IMG/VR virus record: IMGVR_UViG_3300043676_000014
Coordinates: 1-64,000 of that record
Origin: a virus
Lineage: Duplodnaviria > Caudoviricetes
Direction: 5' to 3' (one strand)
Length of the DNA: 64,000 nt
The notes below the pieces were generated by a model. It was not told the DNA's origin, ran no database searches, and saw only the letters and a list, made by a program, of their open reading frames with translations. Made by a program: the position numbers and the translations under genes. Position 1 is the first letter of the stretch; each line of letters starts with the position of its first letter. Shown here piece by piece: positions 5,868 through 64,000 of this stretch.

Positions 5868-6059
5868 ATGAGCCGGGCTGTCACGTTCACGCAAGCCCAG
5901 GTCCGCCGTGCCGTCAAGGCAGCGGAGAACGCCGGCCTGAGGGTTAAGAGCGTGACGGTCAAGCCAGACGGAAGCATTACGGTAGATAGCGGGGAAAACG
6001 AGGTCCGGTCTATGGACAGCCCGAAATTGTCGGTCGCAGCGTCATGGGATGACGCATGA
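5868..6059 (+). CDS. Excisionase/recombination directionality factor-like protein
   Basis: Small basic ORF (TFTQAQVRRAVKAA) coupled directly to the integrase, an arrangement typical of alphaproteobacterial phages. Confidence 0.55.
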   Translation: MSRAVTFTQAQVRRAVKAAENAGLRVKSVTVKPDGSITVDSGENEVRSMDSPKLSVAASWDDA

Positions 6060-7084
6060 TGGGGCGGACAATGGCAGTTCTCAAGCTAAGGTATGTGAAC
6101 GAATACCGCGACCGCACGGGCAAGCTACGGCGCTATTTCAGGCGCGGTGAGGTGCGAGGCCCCCTGCCGGGCGAACCGGGATCGGCCGAGTTCATGGCGG
6201 CATATCAGGCATTGCTTGGCGAAAAACCTGCCCCGACCCTGAAAATCAGCGGGAGTTTAGGTCTGCTGATAACCGAGTTCTACGCCTCGCGCGCTTTTCG
6301 TAATCTAAAGGCATCTAGCAAACAGACCTACCGCGCCGCGCTTGAGCCTATCGCCAAGACCCACGGGCACCGAACCGCCCAGATCACCCATCGGCAAGCC
6401 GCCAAGTTAATCGCTGATATTGGCGAGACTAAGCCTGCAATGGCAAACCTTACCAAGCGTGTTTTGCAGGCGGTCTATAAATACGCGGTTAAGGCGGGAT
6501 GGGTGGATGCAAATCCGATTATCGGAATCGACCCGTTCAAAACCGGGACGCACCACACATGGACCGAGGGTGAGCTTCAAACCTTTGAGGCTAAATGGCC
6601 CTTAGGAACGCGCCAACGCCTCGCCTATGCGCTGTTGCTTTACTCTACCCAGAGAGTCGGGGATGTCGCCAAAATGCACAGGTCCGATCTTGTGGCCGGG
6701 GAACTGCACGTCATTCAGCAAAAGACTGGGAAGGAATTGTATCTGCCGTTCGTGGAGGAAATGCAGCGGGCATTAGCGGCTATCCCGGCGCGGGGATTGA
6801 CACTGTTCGCCCGCACGGACGGCAAGCCGATGACGCGCGCCGGGTTGACCCGGTTCATGGCCGACGCAATCGAGAAAGCTGAGTTGCCGGCCAAGTGTGT
6901 CAGCCACGGGCTACGGAAAGCCGGGATGCGCCGAATGGCCGAGGCCGGAAAGAGCGTCAATCAGATCGCGTCCGTATCCGGCCATAAGTCTTTACGCGAG
7001 GTGCAGCGATATACCGAGGCGGCGGACCAAAGGCGGATGGCGCGGGATGCGATGGGGAACAAAAAGCGTTTAACGACTGACTAA
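6056..7084 (+). CDS. int: Tyrosine recombinase / phage integrase
   Basis: Catalytic residues QRVGD (R), QKT (K), HGLRK (HxxR), SGH and RY; N-terminal arm-binding region. Confidence 0.95.
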   Translation: MMGRTMAVLKLRYVNEYRDRTGKLRRYFRRGEVRGPLPGEPGSAEFMAAYQALLGEKPAPTLKISGSLGLLITEFYASRAFRNLKASSKQTYRAALEPIAKTHGHRTAQITHRQAAKLIADIGETKPAMANLTKRVLQAVYKYAVKAGWVDANPIIGIDPFKTGTHHTWTEGELQTFEAKWPLGTRQRLAYALLLYSTQRVGDVAKMHRSDLVAGELHVIQQKTGKELYLPFVEEMQRALAAIPARGLTLFARTDGKPMTRAGLTRFMADAIEKAELPAKCVSHGLRKAGMRRMAEAGKSVNQIASVSGHKSLREVQRYTEAADQRRMARDAMGNKKRLTTD

Positions 7085-7768: not shown

Positions 7769-7978
7769 GTGACGACGATAACTATCCCACTTTCCGACTA
7801 TCAGCGCCTCGTCCAACTTGTCGAGTTTGATGACATGCTGGTGATCTGCGAAACTTGCGGGGCTTGGTTGGATCGAGACGATCCGGCAACCGCAACCACA
7901 GATGACTACAATGGGTGCTGGAAAGTCGCCGCTGGTGAGGATAGCGACCGATGCAAATCGTACCGGGTCGTCGAATGA
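7769..7978 (+). CDS. Small Cys-rich protein
   Basis: CETC...C...C. Confidence 0.55.
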   Translation: MTTITIPLSDYQRLVQLVEFDDMLVICETCGAWLDRDDPATATTDDYNGCWKVAAGEDSDRCKSYRVVE

Positions 7979-55374: not shown

Positions 55375-55379
55375 GAACC

Positions 55380-55450
55380 CCCATGCGGTAGAAGTCCCCC
55401 AATCGCTTCAAAGACTTACACCACCCCCCGGTCTACGAGGCGCGGCAATC
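55380..55450. other. Probable cos/packaging initiation region
   Basis: Non-coding region upstream of terS; minus strand reads GGGGGGTGGTGTAAGTCT...ACCGCATGGGGG...TTTTTT, resembling left ends of HK97-like cos phages. Confidence 0.4.
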
Positions 55451-55827
55451 GCGCCAGCAAACCAGCAGGTGCGGAATTCCCAAGGCTTTGAGGGTTGATA
55501 GCTTCTCTAATCGCAACGCTATTCAGCGGGCACGCCAGCCCGATTGTGCGCTTCTCGCTTTGCAACATCACATTGCGCTGATTTGTTACCCGTTGCTCGA
55601 AGCTTGAGCCTGGTAGGCGACCATGTGGCGCAATGCGCCCGATAGGCGAGTTCCGCCCAATGAAAAGCCCGACTGCAGCATGAGAGGCTGGCCGGGCTTC
55701 GGTCGCAATTATGAGGCTGCACTATCCATCGCCTTAACCGTTGGGGTTAGCAAGAGGCATGGGTACTAGGGCTAGGGGTTATTCACAGGGACGCGCAAAC
55801 CGGGCGCGCAAACCACAGCCTTGGCGC

Positions 55828-56064
55828 CTAGCCCTTGCGCTGCAGCTTAGGTGCCAGAACGCCTATGCTCTTACCATCGTCTGTGAAGGCAATGCCACGC
55901 TTGCGCAAAGCCTCTTCCACGCCAGCAATGGACGAGCGCCTAGGGTCTCCCGTGTCATTCTCAAGGTCTATCAGCGTTGCGCGGGATATGCCGGCGAACT
56001 CGCATAGCTCTGCCTGGGACAGTCCAAGGATAGCCCTTGCGGCCTTGATTTGCCTACCTTCCAT
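55828..56064 (-). CDS. XRE-family HTH transcriptional regulator
   Basis: QIKAARAILGLSQAELC..AGISR.TL..LE; start placed at MEGRQ. Confidence 0.88.
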   Translation of the reverse strand: MEGRQIKAARAILGLSQAELCEFAGISRATLIDLENDTGDPRRSSIAGVEEALRKRGIAFTDDGKSIGVLAPKLQRKG

Positions 56065-56114
56065 AAAGAGGCTGTACCCTGTATTAGACATTATGTAAAC
56101 TCTTTGTGACTTTA

Positions 56115-56178
56115 TGCATCTTTCTTGTTGACACGCCGTTTATCTCCTATAAGATGCAAATTGTCAACTAAGAGATAC
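56115..56178. promoter_or_regulatory. Divergent sigma70-type promoters with inverted repeats
   Basis: + strand TTGACA(56128)-N16-TAAGAT(56150); - strand TTGACA (56167-56162); inverted pair TGCATCTT/AAGATGCA. Confidence 0.65.
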
Positions 56179-56192
56179 AAAGGAAAACGACC

Positions 56193-56345
56193 ATGATTGA
56201 ATTAGCCCTTACCACTGGAATCATCGGAACTGGCATAGGCTTTTGGATTGCCGATATGTTGGCGACTCGCAAATGGCGGAATGAGACTATGCTGCGTCGT
56301 TGCAACGAAACGGTTTCGCGCCGTTTCAACGCTTCGCGTCATTAA
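56193..56345 (+). CDS. 50-aa protein with N-terminal TM (not in ORF track)
   Basis: AAGGA RBS; MIELALTTGIIGTGIGFWIA. Confidence 0.5.
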   Translation: MIELALTTGIIGTGIGFWIADMLATRKWRNETMLRRCNETVSRRFNASRH

Positions 56346-56357
56346 GGGAATCGAGCA

Positions 56358-56519
56358 ATGGAAAAGAATCCAATCCCTAAAACCGTTGCCGAATTGCGCG
56401 CGATACTTGACGCTCGCAAGCCATATACGCAAGCCATATACGACGCTATTCAGCGCGGTAACATGGATGCATTCGACGCAGCGCAAAAGAGAATGCGCAA
56501 AGCTTTCCCTAACGGTTGA
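56358..56519 (+). CDS. 53-aa hypothetical protein (not in ORF track)
   Basis: GGGAATC RBS; MEKNPIPKTVAELRAIL. Confidence 0.55.
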   Translation: MEKNPIPKTVAELRAILDARKPYTQAIYDAIQRGNMDAFDAAQKRMRKAFPNG

Positions 56520-56531
56520 AAGGCGCGGACC

Positions 56532-56753
56532 ATGACACGCAAAGTTAAAGCATCTGATTACACTCATTCGGTTTGGACTGGCAAAAAGTATAATCGCCAG
56601 CAAACGGATTCCGATTTGGCCAACGAAAGCCGAAAGGTTCTTAATAGACACCCTACAATTGGCCGTTTGTTAGCTCGCCCTAATGACGGCCAACGAATTG
56701 CGAGCCATTGTTTTGAACGCTTCACGTTAACCAGCGCGATTGTGCGCAATTGA
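56532..56753 (+). CDS. Hypothetical protein
   Basis: AAGG RBS. Confidence 0.5.
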   Translation: MTRKVKASDYTHSVWTGKKYNRQQTDSDLANESRKVLNRHPTIGRLLARPNDGQRIASHCFERFTLTSAIVRN

Positions 56754-56770
56754 AAACAGGAATCGCCACT

Positions 56771-57217
56771 ATGGCAAAAAGCTATCCCGAAACTATCCCC
56801 TCGCAATTCGCCGCAGAACATTTGACAGACGCTTATAAACGCGGCTGGAATCAAGGTCACGGCATTGCCTGCCATAACGTGCCGACACTAGGCGAAAAGG
56901 TTTGGAGCGATTCGCTTGGCAAGGTCACGATTGACGCTGAAAACATCCGCGAGGTTCACGCCGATAACTGCTACCGCGCCGAAGAGAATTCCCGCTCTTA
57001 TTCGCCTTTCGAGTTTACCGCCAGCGAATTTAACAAGGCCGATACGACCGATGGGGAATTCGATCCTGACAAGGAAGGATCGGCCGAAGAGTTATGGGAA
57101 GCCTTTGACGCTGGCATTCATGATGCAATCAGCGCCGATTTGTCGGAATATACCGATGAGGATTATGGGATCGAGGAAGAGGTAGACGAGTCCGATCCAG
57201 ACGAGTCCACGGTTTAG
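56771..57217 (+). CDS. Highly acidic hypothetical protein
   Basis: AGGAATC RBS; about 37 D/E vs 10 K/R by hand count. Confidence 0.75.
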   Translation: MAKSYPETIPSQFAAEHLTDAYKRGWNQGHGIACHNVPTLGEKVWSDSLGKVTIDAENIREVHADNCYRAEENSRSYSPFEFTASEFNKADTTDGEFDPDKEGSAEELWEAFDAGIHDAISADLSEYTDEDYGIEEEVDESDPDESTV

Positions 57218-57309
57218 ACGTTTCCGCCTTGCGCCGTTCATTCGGCGCAATGGGAAGCCTCTAGTTTCAATCGGCAATCGTGCCAAACATAACCAAGGGA
57301 ACTAACGCC

Positions 57310-57402
57310 ATGAAATATCGCAAACATAAATTTGAACGTAAGACCATACGTCGCGCGCAATCGCGCTATGGCAAGTATGCTTTCCTGAATTCTGCGCAGT
57401 AA
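57310..57402 (+). CDS. 30-aa basic peptide (not in ORF track)
   Basis: AAGGGA RBS; MKYRKHKFERKTIRR. Confidence 0.4.
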   Translation: MKYRKHKFERKTIRRAQSRYGKYAFLNSAQ

Positions 57403-57414
57403 GGAATCGCCACA

Positions 57415-57648
57415 GTGACCGAACGCTGTTTCGCTTGCGACCGAGTCATTAAGGATACCGGCGATTCCGCGAGGTCGCACCTTGTCGAATGTATCGACGA
57501 GCAAACCGCCTTTATCGGTCCCGAATGTTTCCGCAAGGTTAAGCGCGCGGGAGTCGATGGCTGGCAACCGCCAAAAGGCGGGCCACGTCTTTTCTGCTTA
57601 GGTCTTAAACCCGCGCAATTGTGCGCAAATCAGGAGTCAAGGCAATGA
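57415..57648 (+). CDS. Small zinc-finger-like protein
   Basis: CFAC...GPEC; AGGAATC RBS. Confidence 0.6.
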   Translation: MTERCFACDRVIKDTGDSARSHLVECIDEQTAFIGPECFRKVKRAGVDGWQPPKGGPRLFCLGLKPAQLCANQESRQ

Positions 57649-57739
57649 ACGGTTATTCCGCAAGGCTTAGAGTCTCTCGGATTAAGACGCGCCGCGTTCT
57701 GCGAAGATTGAACCGAGTCGCGATTATGGAGTCGCTCCG

Positions 57740-57964
57740 ATGAAACGAGTCTGCGATTGCCTGCCAAATGAGGCTTTGCAGGATTGGGATTGTGTAAGAT
57801 CCTATTGGGAAAACGAGGTTACTGTAGAGCACAAAGACAAATGGCCGGGACCGCAAAAATACGTTTCATACTGGATTGAGATAGGGAATGGACTCGCTAT
57901 TGGATGGAATGAGAATCCGTCAAGAGGCTGGTCTTTCCCGGTTATCAGAATGAAGGCAAGTTAA
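57740..57964 (+). CDS. Hypothetical protein
   Basis: GGAGTC RBS; GWNENPSRGWSFP. Confidence 0.65.
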   Translation: MKRVCDCLPNEALQDWDCVRSYWENEVTVEHKDKWPGPQKYVSYWIEIGNGLAIGWNENPSRGWSFPVIRMKAS

Positions 57965-58001
57965 CCCGCGCCATAGTGCGCAACGCAATGGAGTCGAGAC
58001 A

Positions 58002-58316
58002 ATGACGATATCCGAATCAACCGAAATGGAGCGCGCGGAATTATTGCGCGCTGGCGCGGTGGAAATATCCCGCGCCGAATGGCTGGCGCGCGTTGAGTCC
58101 TATGGATACCGCGTTAACCAGTCCGATTGCTTTTCCTATCTGAATTCGCACAACGCGCGGCCATACCATGCCCGCTGCGTCTCGAATTATGAAGATAGGG
58201 AAAGCGGACTCTCGTTTGCTCATTACCAGGGACGGCGCGATTCCCGTTTCAAGGAACTGCAGAAAATGCGTTTTGATTGTTTCGTGTTTTCGCGCGGCCG
58301 TATATTTGAGCTCTGA
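58002..58316 (+). CDS. Hypothetical protein
   Basis: GGAGTC RBS after motif B. Confidence 0.65.
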   Translation: MTISESTEMERAELLRAGAVEISRAEWLARVESYGYRVNQSDCFSYLNSHNARPYHARCVSNYEDRESGLSFAHYQGRRDSRFKELQKMRFDCFVFSRGRIFEL

Positions 58317-58329
58317 AAGGGATCAAGCC

Positions 58330-58530
58330 ATGACCACAATAGCCAAAATAACTAAGGCGTATGTCCGCACCTATTCCGACAATCAAACGACTCGCTCTTA
58401 TGTCGAATGGATCGATACCAAGGGAGTCGAGGGACGAACGGAAGGCGCGGTCCCCTTGGGAACGCATATGCTTGCCCTGTTTGAACGGGCAAAGCGTGAA
58501 GGCGTCACTCCTATTTATGAACAATGGTAG
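58330..58530 (+). CDS. Hypothetical protein
   Basis: AAGGGA RBS; start MTTIAKITK. Confidence 0.6.
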   Translation: MTTIAKITKAYVRTYSDNQTTRSYVEWIDTKGVEGRTEGAVPLGTHMLALFERAKREGVTPIYEQW

Positions 58531-58541
58531 GAGTCCGCGTC

Positions 58542-58754
58542 ATGAAAATGCAAGCTGATATCTCAAAGGTGGAACGCGGCGATATCGTCCGGTTCAAATC
58601 GTATGCCTTGCGAGTCGAGCAGGAACCAAAACGCGGCAACGGTTCCATTACCCTGACCGGGCGAATCAGCGTCGACGGTTCCCCGATTGTCACGAAGCAT
58701 TTTATGAATGGTCGCATGGTCCTAATCGAGAGGGAATCCGCGCCAAAAGCCTAA
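58542..58754 (+). CDS. Hypothetical protein
   Basis: AGGAGTC RBS; stop lies in TAACCCC. Confidence 0.65.
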   Translation: MKMQADISKVERGDIVRFKSYALRVEQEPKRGNGSITLTGRISVDGSPIVTKHFMNGRMVLIERESAPKA

Positions 58755-58856
58755 CCCCTGGGATACGGCTGATTCCAAGAGTCCCCGATACGGCTGATTC
58801 CAAAATGCTAAACCCTATTCCGCGCCATTGTGCGCAATTGAGAAGGAGTCGAAACG

Positions 58857-59309
58857 ATGCCTGAATTCATTCTTGACCACGGAACGGTCGAAACCGCGAA
58901 ACAATTCCGCGCCTTGGATTCCTTTACGCAAGGTTACATTGAGGCGATGTTTTTCACGTCTGAGGGCGTCGACAATGATTACGAACCTGGCCACGAAAAC
59001 GACCTAGCTAATATCAGCGTTGCGGACCTTGCGCCTAGCGCGCTGCAGATCATCATTGAAAACTGCGAAGCATTCCAGCGCGACAATGCGGCATTGCTAG
59101 AGCAAGCCTACGGCGTGACCGGGAAATATGAAAAGTTCCCCTATGACGAGTCGCGCGCTGGCAATGACTACTGGTACACGCGAAACGGGCATGGGACGGG
59201 CTTTTGGGATCGTGGCTTAGGCGATATCGGAGAAGCCTTGGCAAAGGCCGCGCGCTATTCGGAGCGTTCCCTATACCGCGGCGATGATGGAAAGCTGTAC
59301 CTAGCTTAA
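58857..59309 (+). CDS. Conserved-type phage early protein
   Basis: GYIEAMFF...AGNDYWYTRNGHGTGFWDR motif. Confidence 0.8.
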   Translation: MPEFILDHGTVETAKQFRALDSFTQGYIEAMFFTSEGVDNDYEPGHENDLANISVADLAPSALQIIIENCEAFQRDNAALLEQAYGVTGKYEKFPYDESRAGNDYWYTRNGHGTGFWDRGLGDIGEALAKAARYSERSLYRGDDGKLYLA

Positions 59310-59350
59310 CCCCTTCCCTACGGCTGATTCCAGAATGAAAGGAAAACAAA

Positions 59351-59506
59351 ATGCAAACGCAAGACCTAGTGAATCTTTTGAACAGCGCGGCCGCCGTCTT
59401 GGAATGCGGCAACGGAACCGTTAGCGCGGACGAATTGAGCCAACTTATCGAAGATCTGCTAATGGCGGCCGTCGAACTAGAGGGACCGCCGCCGAAAATG
59501 AACTAA
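59351..59506 (+). CDS. 51-aa acidic protein (not in ORF track)
   Basis: AAAGGA RBS; exactly spans two motif-A spacers. Confidence 0.65.
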   Translation: MQTQDLVNLLNSAAAVLECGNGTVSADELSQLIEDLLMAAVELEGPPPKMN

Positions 59507-59597
59507 CCCCTAGTCCCGGCTGATTCCAAAGGGAGTCCCGGTTACGGCTGATTTTGAGTTAGTGGCAATTGTGCCGAACAAGTTGAAAGGAATGAAC

Positions 59598-60035
59598 ATG
59601 CTGAAGAAACACGATTCAATCGAGACGCTGCAGCAAATTGGAATCTCTTACGCCGACGCGACCGAGTTGCGGCGCATATCAATGACCTTGCATCGCTGGC
59701 ATGAGCTCGAATGCGGCGGTGGGAACGACCACGCCTCTTGGACCATTGCGCGCGGTCGCAAGGTGAACGGCGTTTTTGAGTACGACGATAACGGAACGCC
59801 TTTCGAAGAACGCCACGTTCACTCCGAAAACAAGGCGCGCTATACCGCTATTCCCGATCGGGAGCGCGGCGCGTTGAAACGCCTTGCGGATATCATGGTG
59901 CGGTATCCGACTCTCTCTTCCTATGTTCAAGGAGATCCGCGCGGCGCGTCCCTGTATATCTTGCGACCTGGGGACGTGCCGGAAGGTTCAAGCGTCGACT
60001 CCTGCTATTCGCGCGGGATTGCCGTTTATAAGTAA
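59598..60035 (+). CDS. Conserved-type phage early protein
   Basis: LHRWHELECG...QGDPRGASLY; start placed after AAAGGA. Confidence 0.75.
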   Translation: MLKKHDSIETLQQIGISYADATELRRISMTLHRWHELECGGGNDHASWTIARGRKVNGVFEYDDNGTPFEERHVHSENKARYTAIPDRERGALKRLADIMVRYPTLSSYVQGDPRGASLYILRPGDVPEGSSVDSCYSRGIAVYK

Positions 60036-60107
60036 CCCCTCTTTACGGCTGATTTTGCTACCCCTGATTACGGCTGATTTTGGCCAAACGAAAAAGGAGT
60101 CTAGACC

Positions 60108-60329
60108 ATGAAAACAGCGCGCGAAATTCAAATGAAATTTGGCGAAGGCCGCCCGGCAATGGGCGGTTCAGTTCATGACATTACTATCCCAGCCGGAACG
60201 CGAGTCGTTCCTACCGACGACGCGCAATTCTTTGTTGATGATCTGAGATTTTTGGATCGGAACAGCATGGCTTACCATGACGCCTATCATTACGGCATTC
60301 GCCTGAATTGGGAGGACGTAACCGACTAA
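60108..60329 (+). CDS. Hypothetical protein
   Basis: AAGGAGTC RBS; HDAYHYGI. Confidence 0.7.
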   Translation: MKTAREIQMKFGEGRPAMGGSVHDITIPAGTRVVPTDDAQFFVDDLRFLDRNSMAYHDAYHYGIRLNWEDVTD

Positions 60330-60389
60330 CCCCTGGTTACGCCTTACCCTGACTTACGGCTGATTTTGAAATACGAAAGGAGTCGCAAA

Positions 60390-60719
60390 ATGATAAGTGA
60401 TAAATCAATGCGCAATGTGCTTCACGCCGCTGGTGTGGTGCGTACCGCCAAGGCGCGCGGGAAGAAGCCGAAGAACGCCGACCGCAGATTGCCGCCCGAT
60501 CCCGAGGAAATGAACGACGACCGCGCGGCATGGGCGGGCGAGTGCATCAGCCTCATGTCAGAGATTACCGGCTGTGAAGATGGGCAAGAGGCGGCGGGCG
60601 ATTTGCTGGCAAACTATTTCCATTGGTGCGACCGCAACGGCTTGGACATGGAAATGATGATAGAGCGCGCCCGCGCGTGTTACCGCGACGAAACTATGGC
60701 GTTTCCAGACGCGGGCTAA
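60390..60719 (+). CDS. Hypothetical protein
   Basis: AAGGAGTC RBS; NDDRAAWA...GDLLAN..HWCDR. Confidence 0.7.
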   Translation: MISDKSMRNVLHAAGVVRTAKARGKKPKNADRRLPPDPEEMNDDRAAWAGECISLMSEITGCEDGQEAAGDLLANYFHWCDRNGLDMEMMIERARACYRDETMAFPDAG

Positions 60720-60762
60720 CCCCAGGATACGACTGATTCTAAAACAACGAAAGGAGTCTGAA

Positions 60763-61047
60763 ATGTCGAATAAATACTATTACTTTCAACTCTGCACAAA
60801 CGATATAGCGGCAATTGAAGCCGCAGGCTTGGGTGAGCTCGCCGCGAAGATGCGCGCCGACGCCGCCGAAATTGATAGCGAGGAAGCGAGCGACTGCCGC
60901 GAGAACGCGAGCGACAATGAGGGATTCACGCCGGAATGGTCCGGCCCGGTCGCGTTCTGCGATGACGGCAAAGCCTGGGTTATGACTTGGGAATTAGTCG
61001 ATGATCCAAATGCGGAAGTCGAGGAAGAGGAGGAGGCTACAGCCTAA
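60763..61047 (+). CDS. Highly acidic hypothetical protein
   Basis: AAGGAGTC RBS; about 24 D/E vs 5 K/R. Confidence 0.7.
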   Translation: MSNKYYYFQLCTNDIAAIEAAGLGELAAKMRADAAEIDSEEASDCRENASDNEGFTPEWSGPVAFCDDGKAWVMTWELVDDPNAEVEEEEEATA

Positions 61048-61091
61048 CCCCTGCTTACGTCTGATTTGAAACAAGGAAAGGAGTCGAGATC

Positions 61092-61304
61092 ATGGAAACG
61101 ATCTTTAAGTATTGGGGAATGTGCGAGTCGCGCGGCGAAAAGCCTAAGCCGGTTTTTGCCGTCATTGAACGCTGGTTTGATACGGCCAACACAAAGGACA
61201 AGATTAAGCATTGGTCCCTTTCGCGGCGTGAGATGGCGAAGTGGGTTGGCTCGCTTGTCTCTCCGAATCTGTACGTCATCGTTAAAATCGAGCGCGTTAC
61301 CTAA
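61092..61304 (+). CDS. Hypothetical protein
   Basis: AAGGAGTC RBS; stop in TAACCCC. Confidence 0.65.
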   Translation: METIFKYWGMCESRGEKPKPVFAVIERWFDTANTKDKIKHWSLSRREMAKWVGSLVSPNLYVIVKIERVT

Positions 61305-61364
61305 CCCCTGCCACCGTCTAATTTTCATCCCTCGCAATTGTGCGGAAATAGAAGGAGTCCGAAT

Positions 61365-61643
61365 ATGGCTAAGTTGATTTTGACGGCATACCCTGCCCAG
61401 GTTTCCGAAAACGGAGGCTTTGGAGTCGTGTTCGATCTAACCGGAGCTCCGCCGCCGCTTCCGGCTAAGGTTGTCGAAATCAAGCGCGCGGCCGAGGCTA
61501 CCGTGGCGCTTGAAGCCTACAAGGCGGAGGCCGCGCAAACCGGCAAGCCTATCGCTATTTCAATGCGGATTGCCGATGGCGACCGTTCGCCAAATGGCTT
61601 CAAGGCGCTGCAACGTCCCTATTATCATAAGGTGAACGCCTAG
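61365..61643 (+). CDS. Hypothetical protein
   Basis: AAGGAGTC RBS; start MAKLILTAY. Confidence 0.65.
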   Translation: MAKLILTAYPAQVSENGGFGVVFDLTGAPPPLPAKVVEIKRAAEATVALEAYKAEAAQTGKPIAISMRIADGDRSPNGFKALQRPYYHKVNA

Positions 61644-61738
61644 CACCTACTCCCCGGTTGCGCCTTCATGTGCGCTACCCTGACCTACGACTGATTCCAA
61701 AAGGCGCAATGGTGCGCAAACTATAGAGGAGTCCAATT

Positions 61739-62071
61739 ATGACCTTTACACCTGATACCGAAGAAACGCCGGTTGTGTTTCGCGCCGAACGCTCTGGCAA
61801 GTTCAAGGGCGATGTTACCGCCGTGTTTCCCTGCGATCCTGCAGACAGCAACGGCTATGAAATGACTTGTTACGCGCATATAGGCCAGCATTCCGGCTGC
61901 AGCCTAGGCTGGTATCACACCACGCGCGCCGCCAAGCCGGAAGAGTATGCGGACCTGAAAAAGGAACTGGAATCCGCGCCTTACGGCTACCGGCTCAAAG
62001 TCTATTCGCGGATCCAACCCTGGATGCGAGAGGCGCGGAGCAAGACCGCGAGGAAACTGGAAAAGGCTTAA
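61739..62071 (+). CDS. Conserved-type phage early protein
   Basis: VVFR...VTAVFP...CYAHIGQHS...A.PEEY.DLK.ELE..GY.L. Confidence 0.78.
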   Translation: MTFTPDTEETPVVFRAERSGKFKGDVTAVFPCDPADSNGYEMTCYAHIGQHSGCSLGWYHTTRAAKPEEYADLKKELESAPYGYRLKVYSRIQPWMREARSKTARKLEKA

Positions 62072-62178
62072 TCCCCCGGTTGCGCCTTCACGCCTAATTC
62101 TGGCGATGGCGTTACCCCTGGGTTACGACTGATTTTGTTTTAACGGCGCAATGGTGCGCAAACACAAGGAGTCTGAAC

Positions 62179-62349
62179 ATGAAAACATCAAAGGAACGGT
62201 GGCCGGAACTGTACGATGTCGCACTTCGTATTGCCAACGAGACCTGTTATCAAATTAACATGCAGGGCGCACAAGTCAAAAGCGAGATGCCGTACAAATC
62301 TCAATGCATCTTGGAGAGTGTCATAAAGATTCTGGAGCAGCGCGTTTAA
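62179..62349 (+). CDS. 56-aa hypothetical protein (not in ORF track)
   Basis: AAGGAGTC RBS; MKTSKERWPELYD...MPYKSQCILE. Confidence 0.65.
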   Translation: MKTSKERWPELYDVALRIANETCYQINMQGAQVKSEMPYKSQCILESVIKILEQRV

Positions 62350-62398
62350 CATTCAACTGGCGCAATGGTGCGCAACTTAACTAGAGGAGATTCAACTT

Positions 62399-62815
62399 AT
62401 GGGCTGTGACATTCACATGGTTTTGGAAAAGCGCATCAACGGGAAATGGGTAACGACTCAGACCTTTGACGCAATCGAAAGCTGGAACGGATTTGCCTCG
62501 CCTATCGCGCGCAACCGTAACTATGAGCGCTTCGCTAGGCTCGCTGGCGTTCGAGGTGACGGCCCCGAGCCGCGCGGCATACCGGATGATCTTAGCGAAA
62601 CCGGACGCTATCATGTGGACGTATGGAGCGGTGACGGCCATAGCCACTCATGGTTGCCGCTAAAGGATGCCGTCAAGGTCTTTGCCGAAACCGAGCATAA
62701 GAAGCATGAGCCGAACAGCACGGCCACAGAGTATCCGACAGACTACTATTTTGGCGTTTCTGACGACGACTCGGAAATGGACGATTATCGAGTCGTCTTT
62801 TGGTTCGATAACTGA
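62399..62815 (+). CDS. Conserved-type phage protein (MGCDIH family)
   Basis: MGCDIH...RNY..FA.LAGVR...HSHSWL...RVVFWFDN. Confidence 0.8.
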   Translation: MGCDIHMVLEKRINGKWVTTQTFDAIESWNGFASPIARNRNYERFARLAGVRGDGPEPRGIPDDLSETGRYHVDVWSGDGHSHSWLPLKDAVKVFAETEHKKHEPNSTATEYPTDYYFGVSDDDSEMDDYRVVFWFDN

Positions 62816-62885
62816 TCCTCACCCGAGGGGCGGCGCGTTGTCGCCCCTCTCTTACGGCTGATTTTAAATTAGAAGGAGTCCGGCA

Positions 62886-63083
62886 ATGTCATATGAAAGC
62901 ACTTTGACGCGAGACGCTAACGGCTACTGCAAGCTATTCGGCCTTGAGTATCGGATATGGCCCGGCCGCAAATGGCGGCGCTGTTCCCTTACCATGCACG
63001 ATCGATACGCGATCGAACAGCAAGCGGAGCTTCTAGCCGCACAGGACAAGTGGAGCGGTTGGCGCGTTATCGAAGTAGCCTAA
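62886..63083 (+). CDS. Hypothetical protein
   Basis: AAGGAGTC RBS. Confidence 0.6.
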   Translation: MSYESTLTRDANGYCKLFGLEYRIWPGRKWRRCSLTMHDRYAIEQQAELLAAQDKWSGWRVIEVA

Positions 63084-63133
63084 CCCTCACCTACGGCTGA
63101 TTCCAAATTCACACGAACATAGGAGATTCACAA

Positions 63134-63424
63134 ATGGCTAACTACAAAACAGGCGCGGAACGGCGCAACGATAGAATGCACAAAATCTTCGAGACGGCAT
63201 ACGAGCTCGCCGCGCACAACGCGGGATGGTCGCCAACCGGAACGCACGGGAAGTGGGTTTGCGCTGGCGATAAGCATTTCGCCAAAGGCAGCTACATGCC
63301 TACGGATCGCGCCTGCCGGTACATCTGCGAAGATCACAATTTGCTCGGTTTGCGTTCGCATGACAGTTCCGATGCCGCTCCAAGCGACCCGGCCCCTCAT
63401 ATGCCGATTGGATTGATCGACTAA
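63134..63424 (+). CDS. Hypothetical protein
   Basis: AGGAG RBS; bounded by motif A. Confidence 0.65.
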   Translation: MANYKTGAERRNDRMHKIFETAYELAAHNAGWSPTGTHGKWVCAGDKHFAKGSYMPTDRACRYICEDHNLLGLRSHDSSDAAPSDPAPHMPIGLID

Positions 63425-63470
63425 CCCTCACTCCCGGCTGATTTCAAACACTCATAGAGGAGATAGAAAA

Positions 63471-63812
63471 ATGACGAATCTACTTGCGACGGCGCGGATG
63501 ATCTTCAACACGAAAGCAACGGAATGGGCTCACGGTTGGGAAACAGCCCGCGTGCGGGCTACCCGATACCAAAATCCACATCTAGGATTTAACGTCGGAT
63601 TCTCCTTTCCGAAGAATCCGCATGATTGCGACCGGGCCGACATGATGGACTGGCTCCGGGAGAATGGCGTTCACGTCTATAGTTGCGGTGGCTACCCTGG
63701 TGCGGAAGTTATGGCTTTGGTTGACGGCGTTAAAAGCAAAGAAGCCGCGAACGAGTGGTTGCCAACCTTCCTCCCAAGGCTCGATGCTTGGGTAAAGGAT
63801 AATTTGCACTGA
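63471..63812 (+). CDS. Hypothetical protein
   Basis: GAGGAG RBS; bounded by motif A. Confidence 0.65.
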   Translation: MTNLLATARMIFNTKATEWAHGWETARVRATRYQNPHLGFNVGFSFPKNPHDCDRADMMDWLRENGVHVYSCGGYPGAEVMALVDGVKSKEAANEWLPTFLPRLDAWVKDNLH

Positions 63813-63880
63813 GGCAAACCCCCGCTTACGACTGATTTCAACCGCGCCAATGTGCGCAACGAAACAAAGGAGATAGAATT

Positions 63881-64000
63881 ATGATCGCATGGACAAATGA
63901 ACAGCAGAATCTCGCCTTGGCCGATGGCTGGGGAGTTTTCGACAACTCGGACCACGGCTTGCGCATCGAACGCCACGACGCGGCGCAACGCTTTGACTGC
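63881..64000 (+). CDS. Hypothetical protein (truncated by window end)
   Basis: AAGGAG RBS after motifs A and B; MIAWTNEQQNLALADGWGVF. Confidence 0.6.
   Translation, partial: MIAWTNEQQNLALADGWGVFDNSDHGLRIERHDAAQRFDC

What the first reader, a model, noticed from the sequence alone, without database searches (positions are those of the whole stretch)
58752..64000. Gene-cassette array: unrelated small ORFs separated by one conserved modular spacer
Seen: from 58.7 kb to the window end, nearly every gene junction follows the same grammar. It runs: stop codon (usually the TAA of TAACCCC/TAACCCT), then TACG(G/A)CTGATT(C/T)(C/T) (17 copies counted, including degenerate ones), then an optional GCGCA-N4-TGCGC palindrome, then AAGGAGTC/GGAGA RBS and ATG. 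The ~15 intervening ORFs (51-150 aa) share no visible similarity. Established: repeated regulatory cassettes (PeSL elements) in T4-type phage early regions have been reported to mediate modular gene shuffling. Inference: this is an integron-like or PeSL-like platform in a temperate alphaproteobacterial phage. Each gene would be a swappable unit carrying its own expression signal, probably an anti-defence or host-takeover repertoire. I do not recognise this motif from any described system.
Basis: partly seen in the sequence, partly recalled or inferred. Interest (0 to 1): 0.88.

Follow-up and report, generated by a model that had tools for sequence, protein, structure and literature searches.

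The report
Oriented junction motif punctuating phage genes
A temperate soil phage related to Bradyrhizobium prophages places the same one-directional ~24-base signal after most genes of a long run of small unknown genes; related phages gain, lose and swap single genes at that signal, but what the signal does for gene expression is still unknown.

Summary
The genome (94,146 bp; window = bases 1-64,000) has 29-30 copies of a unit made of a stop codon, a C-rich box and TACGRCTGATT(YY). All lie on the + strand between 58.75 and 68.3 kb. A weight matrix finds no comparable site elsewhere on either strand (best 7.9 bits against 20-35).

The same oriented motif (CCC..GGC-TACGRCYGATT) occurs in at least eight related phage or prophage records. 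Three are Bradyrhizobium prophages. Their arrays share almost no genes with this one, so the motif is under selection.

Close relatives show cassette changes at the repeats: two ORFs missing with the crossover inside a motif pair, two cassettes inserted at a motif, and different modules joined just after a motif pair. Other breaks fall at the second repeat (a covarying RNA hairpin 8 nt before the RBS) or at plain gene overlaps.

I found no array-linked recombinase and no attC-like fold, sigma-70 promoter, terminator or phage RNA polymerase. My reading is a lineage-specific expression signal whose copies recombine by short homology, as PeSLs do. An integron-like platform is unlikely. Processing site, promoter and roadblock cannot be separated without RNA data. 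This scan has noted similar arrays in other phages.

The parts
55828..56091 (-). HTH_3 (Xre-type) gene, divergent from the array operon and upstream of the terminase genes
   Evidence: Pfam HTH_3, E 3.5e-8
56128..56155 (+). Best sigma-70-like promoter of the region (TTGACA-16-TAAGAT), at the head of the rightward operon
   Evidence: 10 of 12 matches; first gene starts at 56193
56193..58754 (+). First 10 small genes of the operon. They have no junction motif but carry the hairpin+RBS module at 56734, 57613 and 57968.
58764..58776 (+). Motif core, copy 1 (first of a tandem pair); the stop TAA at 58752-58754 opens the C box
58789..58801 (+). Motif core, copy 2 (second of the pair)
59319..59331 (+). 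Motif core, copy 3
59515..59527 (+). Motif core, copy 4 (CCCGGCTGATTCC, one mismatch), first of a pair
59543..59555 (+). Motif core, copy 5. Relative L170 joins copy 1 to this copy and lacks 58788-59537 (two ORFs).
60044..60056 (+). Motif core, copy 6 (pair)
60069..60081 (+). Motif core, copy 7 (pair)
60331..60349 (+). Variant box B (CCCCTGGTTACGCCTTACC). It shares the first half of the motif and precedes copy 8.
   Evidence: box B also at 61653, 62073, 65598 and in relatives
60355..60367 (+). Motif core, copy 8
60728..60740 (+). Motif core, copy 9
61056..61068 (+). Motif core, copy 10 (TACGTCTGATTTG)
61686..61698 (+). Motif core, copy 11, 7 nt before a hairpin
62124..62136 (+). Motif core, copy 12
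62142..62358 (+). Cassette (hairpin, RBS, 56-aa ORF 62179-62349) that is absent from a contig of another metagenome; the deletion runs from one hairpin to the next
   Evidence: run X4 joint L160 7141>7359, 'TAAC' between
62399..62815 (+). 138-aa ORF. A contig from X4 skips it from just before its start codon to just after its stop (letters between not known), and an X3 contig piece starts at the same downstream place, 62819.
   Evidence: joint L160 7395>7819, and piece starting at 7819
62827..62851 (+). G+C-rich hairpin with a weak T tail (terminator-like), directly before copy 13
   Evidence: MFE helix
62853..62865 (+). Motif core, copy 13
63092..63104 (+). Motif core, copy 14
63433..63445 (+). 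Motif core, copy 15 (CCCGGCTGATTTC)
63827..63839 (+). Motif core, copy 16. Thirteen more copies follow at 64,181-68,297 beyond the window.
61704..61717 (+). Example of the second repeat, the RNA hairpin GCGCA-AUGG-UGCGC. Others are at 56734, 57613, 57968, 58822, 59564, 61332, 62146, 62360 and 63844.
   Evidence: 97% of cells paired, CG<>GC in 6 rows, AU>GU in 15 rows; fixed 8 nt before the SD
58857..64000 (+). 15 unrelated small ORFs (51-150 aa), each with a GGAGTC/GGAGAT-type RBS
   Evidence: PHROGs of unknown function for 4, no Pfam. ORF 59598-60035 has about 4,000 homologues.

Best explanation
The motif is a lineage-specific, strand-specific cis-acting punctuation signal of one long rightward accessory-gene operon in a temperate alphaproteobacterial siphovirus.

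Shown: about 30 co-oriented copies sit directly after stop codons. They are confined to 58.75-68.3 kb. They are conserved in sequence and orientation across relatives whose genes are otherwise unrelated. Copies of the motif, and of a second repeat (a hairpin), are places where single ORFs have been added, deleted or replaced.

Inferred mechanism: the operon is transcribed from the sigma-70-like promoter at 56.13 kb as a polycistronic RNA. The motif is read on that RNA as an intercistronic end-defining site, most likely a cleavage site around the invariant GAUU for an endoribonuclease or a phage-specified adaptor. Cleavage would release units that begin a few bases before the conserved 5-bp RNA hairpin, which sits a fixed 8 nt from the Shine-Dalgarno sequence.

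Gene shuffling would then be a by-product. Thirty direct repeats of 24-50 bp give homology for phage or host recombination, as with T4-type PeSLs. No dedicated recombinase is needed.
For: - Specificity and orientation.
- Position directly after the stop codon in 16 of 25 junctions.
- Conservation in G001-G004, L131, L132, L134 and Bradyrhizobium genomes, on one strand only with zero reversed-pattern controls. Only 4 array ORFs have homologues in those relatives.
- The motif does not travel with the genes: none of 80 viral loci that encode homologues of ORF 59598-60035 carries it.
- One strong promoter at the operon head, and no excess of promoter-like (7 found, 11.4 in shuffles) or terminator-like (19 found, 18.8 in shuffles) sites.
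- No sigma70_r2 hit and no RNA_pol hit. The large ORFs are structural.
- In relatives, recognisable sigma-70-type promoters (TTGACG-N17-TATGAA) lie between a motif and the hairpin. There the motif marks the end of a unit, not its promoter.
- The hairpin behaves as RNA, with G-U replacing A-U in 15 rows and CG<>GC swaps in 6 rows. It lies 2-11 nt after the motif and 8 nt before the SD.
- The motif keeps its + orientation even where it flanks a minus-strand ORF at the operon's end. That is harmless for a signal read on the + transcript.
- Recombination at repeats: L170, G003 against G004, L174 and L207, hairpin-to-hairpin loss in X4.
Against: - There are no RNA data at all, so no transcript end has been seen.
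- About 24 conserved bases is far more than a host RNase E site needs, and no sequence-specific RNase was identified in the genome.
- The GAUU resemblance to RNase E sites rests on my memory of the RAUUW / RN-WUU consensus, not on a test.
- Intergenic folds are no more stable than shuffles.
- The first 10 genes of the same operon manage without the motif.
- Lineage-specific drift of the motif (CTGATT here, CCGATT in Bradyrhizobium prophages, a different 24-mer in L224) fits a co-evolving DNA- or RNA-binding factor equally well. A promoter-specificity factor is one such candidate.
- Tandem pairs are not explained by this model.
Confidence: 0.33

Rival explanations
1. The motif is a factor-dependent promoter, giving one promoter per cassette. 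GATTYY would act as a weak -10-like hexamer (A at -11 always, T at -7 in about half of the copies). The conserved C box and GGYTACGRC would replace the -35 box as the docking site of a phage-specific activator or sigma-remodelling factor, as in T4 MotA/AsiA middle promoters or a GcrA-type sigma-70 cofactor. Each small gene would then also be transcribed on its own.
For: - A lineage-specific, oriented motif of about 24 nt in front of RBSs is what phage-specific promoters look like. The unrelated phage L224 has its own 24-mer in the same position.
- Tandem copies are common for promoters.
- Copy 13 follows a terminator-like hairpin directly.
- The phage and all five relatives examined encode a GcrA-like protein. 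The published GcrA site TGATTCG / YGAKTCK (PMC4647560) resembles CTGATTC.
- For spacers of 6-11 nt, the distance from the motif to the hairpin would put a start site at the foot of the hairpin.
Against: - The motif has no -35 box, and a 9-nt gap between the C box and the hexamer is too short for a sigma-70-family two-box promoter.
- No sigma or RNA polymerase gene was found.
- In relatives, ordinary sigma-70-type promoters lie just downstream of motif copies, which would be redundant.
- Motif pairs point into a minus-strand ORF and into the 3' end of Ro60 at the operon's end.
- With spacers of 2-4 nt the start site would fall inside the hairpin.
- Most copies in the Bradyrhizobium prophages (CCGATTT) hold no GANTC site.
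Confidence: 0.25
2. The motif is a stoperator-like roadblock. It would be the asymmetric DNA site of a phage repressor-type protein that blocks elongating RNA polymerase in one orientation. This would keep the accessory operon silent in the lysogen and stop read-through into the convergent genes at 68.3 kb.
For: - About 30 asymmetric sites in short intergenic gaps, all oriented with transcription, in a temperate phage. This matches the published description of L5-type stoperators (PMC6550527).
- Extra pairs pile up at the operon's end in front of convergent genes.
- An Xre-fold HTH protein is conserved at the array's end in every motif-bearing relative.
- The motif and that protein both differ between the two sub-lineages.
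Against: - Sites are confined to 10 kb of one operon and are not genome-wide.
- No copy lies at any promoter; the best site outside the array scores 7.9 bits.
- Xre-type HTH proteins usually bind palindromes as dimers, and the 14-bp hairpin/palindrome would suit them better than the asymmetric motif.
- In this genome the conserved HTH gene is truncated to 53 aa. Only a 43%-identical paralogue survives, fused in gene 67409-68035.
- The co-occurrence is synteny, not independent evidence.
Confidence: 0.12
3. The motif is a translational coupling switch. The C/U-rich box just after the stop codon, or the GAUUCC end of the motif, would pair with the next gene's Shine-Dalgarno sequence. The downstream gene would then be translated only when a ribosome terminating upstream melts the pairing.
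For: - The box overlaps the stop codon in 16 of 25 junctions, within a terminating ribosome's footprint.
- Predicted folds sequester the SD with mean paired fraction 0.62.
- In 7 of 17 junctions at least 3 motif-SD pairs are predicted.
- The odd RBS GGAGUC is complementary to GAUUCC with one G-U pair.
Against: - Folds are no more stable than shuffles (mean z 0.02).
- Pairing is absent in 10 of 17 junctions.
- This model does not explain the invariant TACGRC core, the tandem pairs, or copies with no gene downstream.
- The GGAGTC RBS also occurs in 56.2-58.7 kb, where there is no motif.
Confidence: 0.08
4. The motif is a dedicated recombination site, making this an integron-like or otherwise enzyme-driven cassette platform. 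A phage or host recombinase would recognise it and insert or excise single cassettes.
For: - The layout resembles an integron: one promoter at the head, co-oriented repeats, mostly promoterless small ORFs, and a few reverse-oriented ORFs between repeats.
- Indels have ends inside the motif.
- Modules differ just after motif pairs.
Against: - No recombinase lies next to the array. The only integrase is at 6056-7084, and a weak transposase-like ORF is at 72.9 kb.
- The motif has no dyad symmetry or attC-like fold.
- Indels also end at the hairpin repeat, at start and stop codons, and at motif-free gene overlaps.
- Back-to-back tandem copies are not what excision leaves behind.
- The motif does not accompany the same ORF family in 80 other phages.
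Confidence: 0.07

Closest known systems
PeSL (promoter-early stem-loop) cassettes of T4-type phages (Arbiol et al. 2010, PMC2839356; Comeau et al. 2014, PMC4122927)
   Same: Short conserved regulatory repeats lie between small, non-essential, mostly unknown genes. Insertions, deletions and replacements between close relatives break at the repeats, and recombination between repeats is the proposed driver.
   Different: PeSLs are strong sigma-70-like promoters plus terminator stem-loops in lytic myoviruses. This motif has no -35/-10 geometry. The hairpin here is a 5-bp RNA stem with no U tract, fixed 8 nt before the RBS. The host phage is a temperate siphovirus or prophage of Alphaproteobacteria. 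Mini-circles were not testable.
Stoperators of cluster A mycobacteriophages (L5, Bxb1; PMC6550527, PMC9283540)
   Same: There are 20-30 asymmetric sites of about 13 bp in short intergenic gaps, oriented with transcription, in temperate phages, and the motif drifts between lineages.
   Different: Stoperators are spread over both genome arms, and the same site serves as operator in the early lytic promoter. Here all sites lie in 10 kb of one operon and none lies at a promoter. No cognate monomeric repressor is known.
Integron attC sites and gene cassettes
   Same: An array of co-oriented repeats separates promoterless small ORFs behind one promoter, with occasional reverse-oriented ORFs and cassette-level gain and loss.
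   Different: There is no IntI next to the array, no imperfect-palindrome attC structure and no R''/R' cores. Exchanges also occur at other repeats and at gene overlaps.
T7 early-region RNase III sites and RNase E processing of T4 mRNAs (textbook knowledge, not tested here)
   Same: These are intercistronic signals that cut a polycistronic phage early transcript into stable single-gene units with protective end structures.
   Different: T7 sites are long hairpins. This motif is unstructured and about 24 nt long, and no cleavage has been observed.
Start-associated sequences (SAS/ESAS) of cluster K mycobacteriophages (from memory, Pope et al. 2011; not read here)
   Same: A conserved asymmetric 13-bp sequence is repeated just upstream of many start codons in one orientation, with unknown function.
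   Different: SAS includes the RBS and lies 3-8 bp from the start codon. This motif is tied to the upstream stop codon and lies 20-100 nt from the next start.

Membership tests
PeSL (T4-type promoter-early stem-loop) | Strong sigma-70-like early promoter (-35/-10) inside the repeat | tested here: not met
   No -35 box; the gap between the C box and the hexamer is about 9 nt. Promoter-like sites number 7 against 11.4 in shuffles, and none coincides with a motif.
PeSL (T4-type promoter-early stem-loop) | Stem-loop that acts as a transcription terminator | tested here: not met
   The repeated hairpin has 5 bp, no U tract, and sits 8 nt before the SD. Terminator-like sites number 19 against 18.8 in shuffles.
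PeSL (T4-type promoter-early stem-loop) | Indels and replacements between close relatives break at the repeats | tested here: met
   L170 against the window; G003 against G004; L174 and L207; X4 contig. Some breaks lie elsewhere.
PeSL (T4-type promoter-early stem-loop) | Mini-circles formed between neighbouring repeats | not testable with these tools
   Only assembled contigs were available, and no cassette-circle joint was listed.
Integron (attC / IntI) | Tyrosine recombinase IntI next to the array, divergent from the cassette promoter | tested here: not met
   The divergent gene is an 87-aa HTH_3 protein. The only integrase is at 6056-7084.
Integron (attC / IntI) | attC: 55-140 nt imperfect palindrome that folds as a single strand, with RYYYAAC/GTTRRRY cores | tested here: not met
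   The unit is about 24 nt with no dyad. Junction folds have mean z 0.02 against shuffles. Rfam found nothing.
L5-type stoperators | 20-30 asymmetric sites of 13-14 bp, in intergenic gaps, oriented with transcription | tested here: met
   29-30 sites, all on the + strand, all at + strand gene junctions apart from two pairs beside a minus-strand ORF.
L5-type stoperators | Sites spread over the genome, with the same site acting as operator in the early lytic promoter | tested here: not met
   No site of at least 12 bits outside 58.7-68.4 kb on either strand. The promoter region at 56.1 kb carries a different inverted repeat.
L5-type stoperators | Cognate repressor binds the site as a monomer and blocks elongation | not testable with these tools
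   A candidate Xre-fold protein is conserved at the array's end, but binding could not be tested.
Lambda-type nut site (boxA + boxB) | Linear box followed by a short hairpin, near the start of an operon, bound by an N-type antiterminator | tested here: inconclusive
   Motif plus a 5-bp hairpin 2-11 nt downstream occurs in 5 junctions of this genome. However, there are about 30 copies, the hairpin is optional and also occurs alone, and no N-like protein was identified.

The most novel reading that the evidence does not exclude
The motif and the covarying hairpin together form a new phage-encoded system for per-gene control of a long accessory operon in Alphaproteobacteria. A dedicated, co-evolving factor would read about 30 oriented sites, either as an orientation-dependent roadblock or as a sequence-specific RNA cutter or loader. 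The Xre-fold protein kept at the end of every such array is one candidate. Lineages would carry different 24-mers (this one, and the unrelated 24-mer of L224), which would make it a widespread, unrecognised class of phage regulatory punctuation outside mycobacteriophages and T4.
Probability: 0.2. Interest if true: 0.75.

Novelty: new variant of a known kind. Interest (0 to 1): 0.5.

Why it matters
Phage 'ORFan' regions are where new anti-defence and host-takeover genes arise, and how they are expressed and shuffled is poorly understood outside T4 and the mycobacteriophages. This case gives a sharply defined, strongly conserved signal in temperate alphaproteobacterial phages. It is also present in cultivable Bradyrhizobium lysogens (B. 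embrapense SEMIA 6208, strains Ai1a-2 and Leo170). Natural variants show single-gene gain and loss at the signal. The question 'promoter, RNA cut site or roadblock?' can therefore be tested directly with standard transcript-end mapping. The motif also offers a practical marker for finding accessory-gene arrays and their boundaries in prophages of nitrogen-fixing symbionts.

Tried and rejected
- RNA evidence: no RNA holder was listed for the stretch. Read laying returned assembled contigs only, so no transcript ends, strands or levels could be read.
- Rfam: no family at gathering or E<=1 thresholds.
- Literature search for the 10-mer: only unrelated primer hits.
- Near and distant DNA searches of cultured phages: only a 117-nt match of one ORF to Caulobacter phages and nothing for the structural region. 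No cultured phage encodes the array-end HTH.
- UACG-tetraloop hairpin in the Bradyrhizobium version of the motif (CGGC-UACG-GCCG): rejected. The A variant at R keeps C opposite it, and the window's copies do not pair (read by eye).
- Complementarity of UUACGRCU to 16S rRNA 1493-1500: judged chance. It is 7-8 nt long and lies in helix 44. This was from memory of the 1492R primer site and was not tested.
- Sigma-54, ECF, RpoH, IHF, DnaA-box, LexA and FixK consensus comparisons from memory: no convincing match.
- GANTC/CcrM as the core of the motif: only about half of the window's copies (GATTC) hold a site, and almost none in the Bradyrhizobium prophages do.
- Enrichment of homology-block ends at motifs: 25% lie within 15 nt against 7.4% at random. 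I set this aside as biased, because a conserved motif extends BLAST hits up to itself.
- Tandem 12-15-nt repeats in L227, L232 and L240 are ordinary tandem arrays, not analogues.
- Pfam and PHROGs gave no function for the window's array ORFs.

Full report
**Setting.** The window is the first 64 kb of a 94,146-bp virus record with direct terminal repeats, assembled from a soil metagenome.
- It is a siphovirus-type temperate phage. It encodes a tape-measure protein, portal, capsid/protease and TerL, an integrase at 6056-7084 and a CII-like regulator, and a replication initiator and sliding clamp. It also has a GcrA-like protein, a DnaA-domain-IV-only protein and an N6/N4 methyltransferase.
- Its TerL is closest to those of Labrenzia and Agrobacterium phages, at 59% and 54% amino-acid identity.
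- The finding lies in a rightward operon. This operon starts at the best sigma-70-like promoter of the region (56128-56155, TTGACA-16-TAAGAT). It is divergent from an 87-aa HTH_3 gene, and it runs to about 68.3 kb, where it meets a convergent Ro60/TROVE module.

**The observation.**
- TACGRCTGATTYY occurs 13 times exactly, all on the + strand at 58764-63839, against 0.53 expected.
- On the whole record, the 10-mer core with at most one mismatch occurs 29 times between 58,765 and 68,297, always on the + strand.
- A weight matrix built from these sites finds 30 sites of at least 12 bits in that interval. It finds none in the other 84 kb on either strand; the best outside score is 7.9 bits against 20-35 for array sites.
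- The full unit is about 24 nt: a TA(A) that is usually the stop codon of the upstream gene, a C-rich box, 3-5 variable bases, then TACGRCTGATT and two pyrimidines. In 16 of 25 junctions the stop codon runs directly into the C box.
- Eight junctions and the two operon-end positions carry tandem pairs 25-33 nt apart.
- A related 'box B' (CCCCGGTTGCGCCTTC) sometimes takes the first place of a pair.
- The 24 ORFs between the first motif and 66.5 kb are 38-150 aa long and unrelated to one another.
- The first ten genes of the operon (56.2-58.75 kb) have no motif.

**A second repeat.** The 'optional palindrome' is a separate module.
- It occurs 12 times in this operon, including three places without the motif, and many times in relatives.
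- In 42 copies, 97% of cells pair. One pair switches CG to GC in six copies, and the closing A-U is G-U in fifteen. This pattern points to an RNA stem, not a DNA operator.
- It lies a fixed 8 nt before the Shine-Dalgarno sequence. Its distance from the motif varies from 2 to 22 nt.

**Relatives.**
- A pattern scan of viral contigs, followed by counting, picked out four records with oriented arrays of CCC..GGC-TACGRCYGATT. A strict 12-mer gave 4-10 hits on one strand, none on the other and none for the reversed control.
- A tandem-pair pattern added L127/L134, L131 and L132. In genomes it found prophages of Bradyrhizobium embrapense SEMIA 6208, Bradyrhizobium sp. Ai1a-2 and sp. Leo170.
- Only four ORFs of this array have homologues in those arrays, yet the motif is nearly identical. 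The motif is therefore under purifying selection of its own.
- The motif is not attached to the genes. ORF 59598-60035 belongs to a family of about 4,000 proteins, and none of 80 viral loci that encode it carries the motif.
- One of those loci, L224, has a different oriented 24-mer (CGTGCAGCAAGGTTCCACCGAATC, 13 copies) in the same stop-to-RBS position. Lineage-specific punctuation therefore seems to be a recurrent design.
- The scan's notebook lists similar arrays in other phages. I did not check those cases.

**Cassette turnover.**
- Soil contig L170 (83-95% identical) joins motif copy 1 to copy 5 and lacks 58788-59537, which holds two ORFs. The crossover lies inside the sequence shared by the two motif pairs.
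- Provirus G004 has two extra cassettes relative to G003, and the homology breaks at a motif.
- L174 (98% identical) diverges completely 8 nt after the last motif pair.
- In L207 the pair homologous to 68028/68053 is followed, 29 nt later, by sequence homologous to 71,971 onward, so the Ro60 module is absent.
- A contig from another metagenome lacks 62142-62358, a hairpin-to-hairpin deletion of one cassette. It also skips ORF 62399-62815 from just before its start codon to just after its stop, with what lies between not known. A piece of a contig from a third sample starts at the same downstream place, 62819.
- Not all breaks are at repeats. A 1.7-kb difference between G003 and G004 breaks at an overlapping stop/start with no motif, and L174 differs inside a gene.
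- Overall the picture is recombination at whatever short homology the junctions offer, and the motif is the most abundant such homology.

**What the motif is not.**
- It has no dyad symmetry, and the junction RNAs fold no better than shuffles (mean z 0.02).
- There is no Rfam match.
- There is no sigma-70 two-box geometry, and no excess of promoter-like or terminator-like sites.
- No sigma or single-subunit RNA polymerase gene was detected. The RNA_pol search rang in no control genome, so that negative is weak.
- No recombinase lies beside the array.
- It is absent from every promoter region of the genome.

**Mechanism.** Four facts guide my choice.
1. The motif is tied to the upstream stop codon, while its distance to the next start varies.
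2. In relatives, ordinary sigma-70-type promoters sit between a motif and the hairpin, so in those places the motif closes a unit and does not open it.
3. The motif keeps its + orientation where it flanks a minus-strand 62-aa ORF at the operon's end.
4. The element just downstream is an RNA hairpin in register with the RBS.

I therefore favour a signal read on the polycistronic + transcript that defines RNA ends between cistrons, with probability 0.33. The invariant GAUU would be the likely cut region and the hairpin a 5' protective structure. A factor-dependent promoter comes close behind at 0.25. A stoperator-like roadblock (0.12), a translational coupling switch (0.08) and a dedicated recombination site (0.07) follow. 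All of these are inferences, because no RNA data exist for this phage.

**A candidate trans factor.** Every motif-bearing relative ends its array with a conserved protein of about 110-136 aa.
- Its model (pLDDT 68; 86-92 over residues 11-60) most resembles Xre-type HTH proteins such as HigA2, Aca1/Aca2 and C proteins. The Foldseek E-values are weak (0.07-1), with probability near 1.
- In this genome the gene is cut to 53 aa, and a 43%-identical copy is fused into gene 67409-68035.
- Its link to the motif is synteny only.

**Gene content.** The window's ORFs have no Pfam family and only PHROGs of unknown function. The array of relative G001 holds an ArdC-N protein, DUF3560, a SAM methyltransferase, an IS1595 transposase and a PCRF-domain protein. 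An accessory or anti-defence role for these arrays is therefore plausible but unproven here.

**Verdict.**
- The cassette-like evolution is supported.
- The integron reading is not supported.
- The PeSL analogy holds for evolution but not for composition.
- The motif is an undescribed member of a recurring kind of phage junction signal, and its function is open and testable in cultivable Bradyrhizobium lysogens.

Noticed in passing
window 56000-64000 (and to about 66 kb): GANTC (CcrM-type) sites are about 3-fold enriched: 22, 24, 14 and 13 per 2 kb against about 6.5 elsewhere. Many lie in the unusual RBS GGAGTC/GGAGATTC and in the GATTC end of the motif. The phage encodes a GcrA-like protein (87721-88305, minus strand) and an N6/N4 methyltransferase (84049-85320, minus strand).
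   Followed up: partly
genome 68080-68268, minus strand (beyond the window): A 62-aa ORF with an N-terminal hydrophobic segment and a good RBS lies on the minus strand between two motif pairs (68028/68053 and 68270/68297). The best minus-strand sigma-70-like site (TTGATC-17-TATAAT, 68104-68076) lies inside it.
   Followed up: partly
genome 68490-72510, minus strand (L001): Ro60/TROVE, HNH, nucleotidyltransferase and HD phosphohydrolase form one module. The module is absent from relative L207, and different sequence takes its place in L174. Contigs from three samples carry different short inserts at 70309-70370, which is probably a variable loop of the Y-RNA-like genes noted by another reader.
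   Followed up: no
genome 67032-68035 (L160:12032-13035): The Xre-fold HTH gene conserved at the array's end in all relatives is truncated here to 53 aa. A diverged copy forms the C-terminal 130 aa of the 208-aa gene 67409-68035. Relative L174 has a single intact 136-aa gene.
   Followed up: yes
L224:3330-9521 (IMGVR_UViG_3300043640_000137): An unrelated 88.5-kb phage contig that encodes a homologue of ORF 59598-60035 has its own oriented 24-mer, CGTGCAGCAAGGTTCCACCGAATC. It has 13 copies, some tandem, between stop codons and RBSs, and the ending resembles this motif's CYGATTC.
   Followed up: partly
window 59598-60035: This 145-aa ORF belongs to a very large family (3,981 proteins at E<=1e-5, 44 invariant columns among 20 members) with no Pfam or PHROG annotation.
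   Followed up: partly
genome 88306-88881, minus strand (L002:9306-9881): A 191-aa protein consists only of a DnaA domain IV (Bac_DnaA_C, E 1e-25). It sits next to the GcrA-like and CII-like genes, and homologues occur in 3 of 5 relatives.
   Followed up: partly
L122:15505-16299 and L122:11375-12370 (relative G001): The relative's array holds a PCRF-domain (release-factor-like) protein and an IS1595-family transposase among the motif-bounded genes.
   Followed up: no
window 55375-56192: The divergent control region carries an inverted repeat (GTTGACA ... TGTCAAC) that brackets the operon promoter. It is probably the operator of the 87-aa HTH_3 protein, and it is unrelated to the junction motif.
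   Followed up: no
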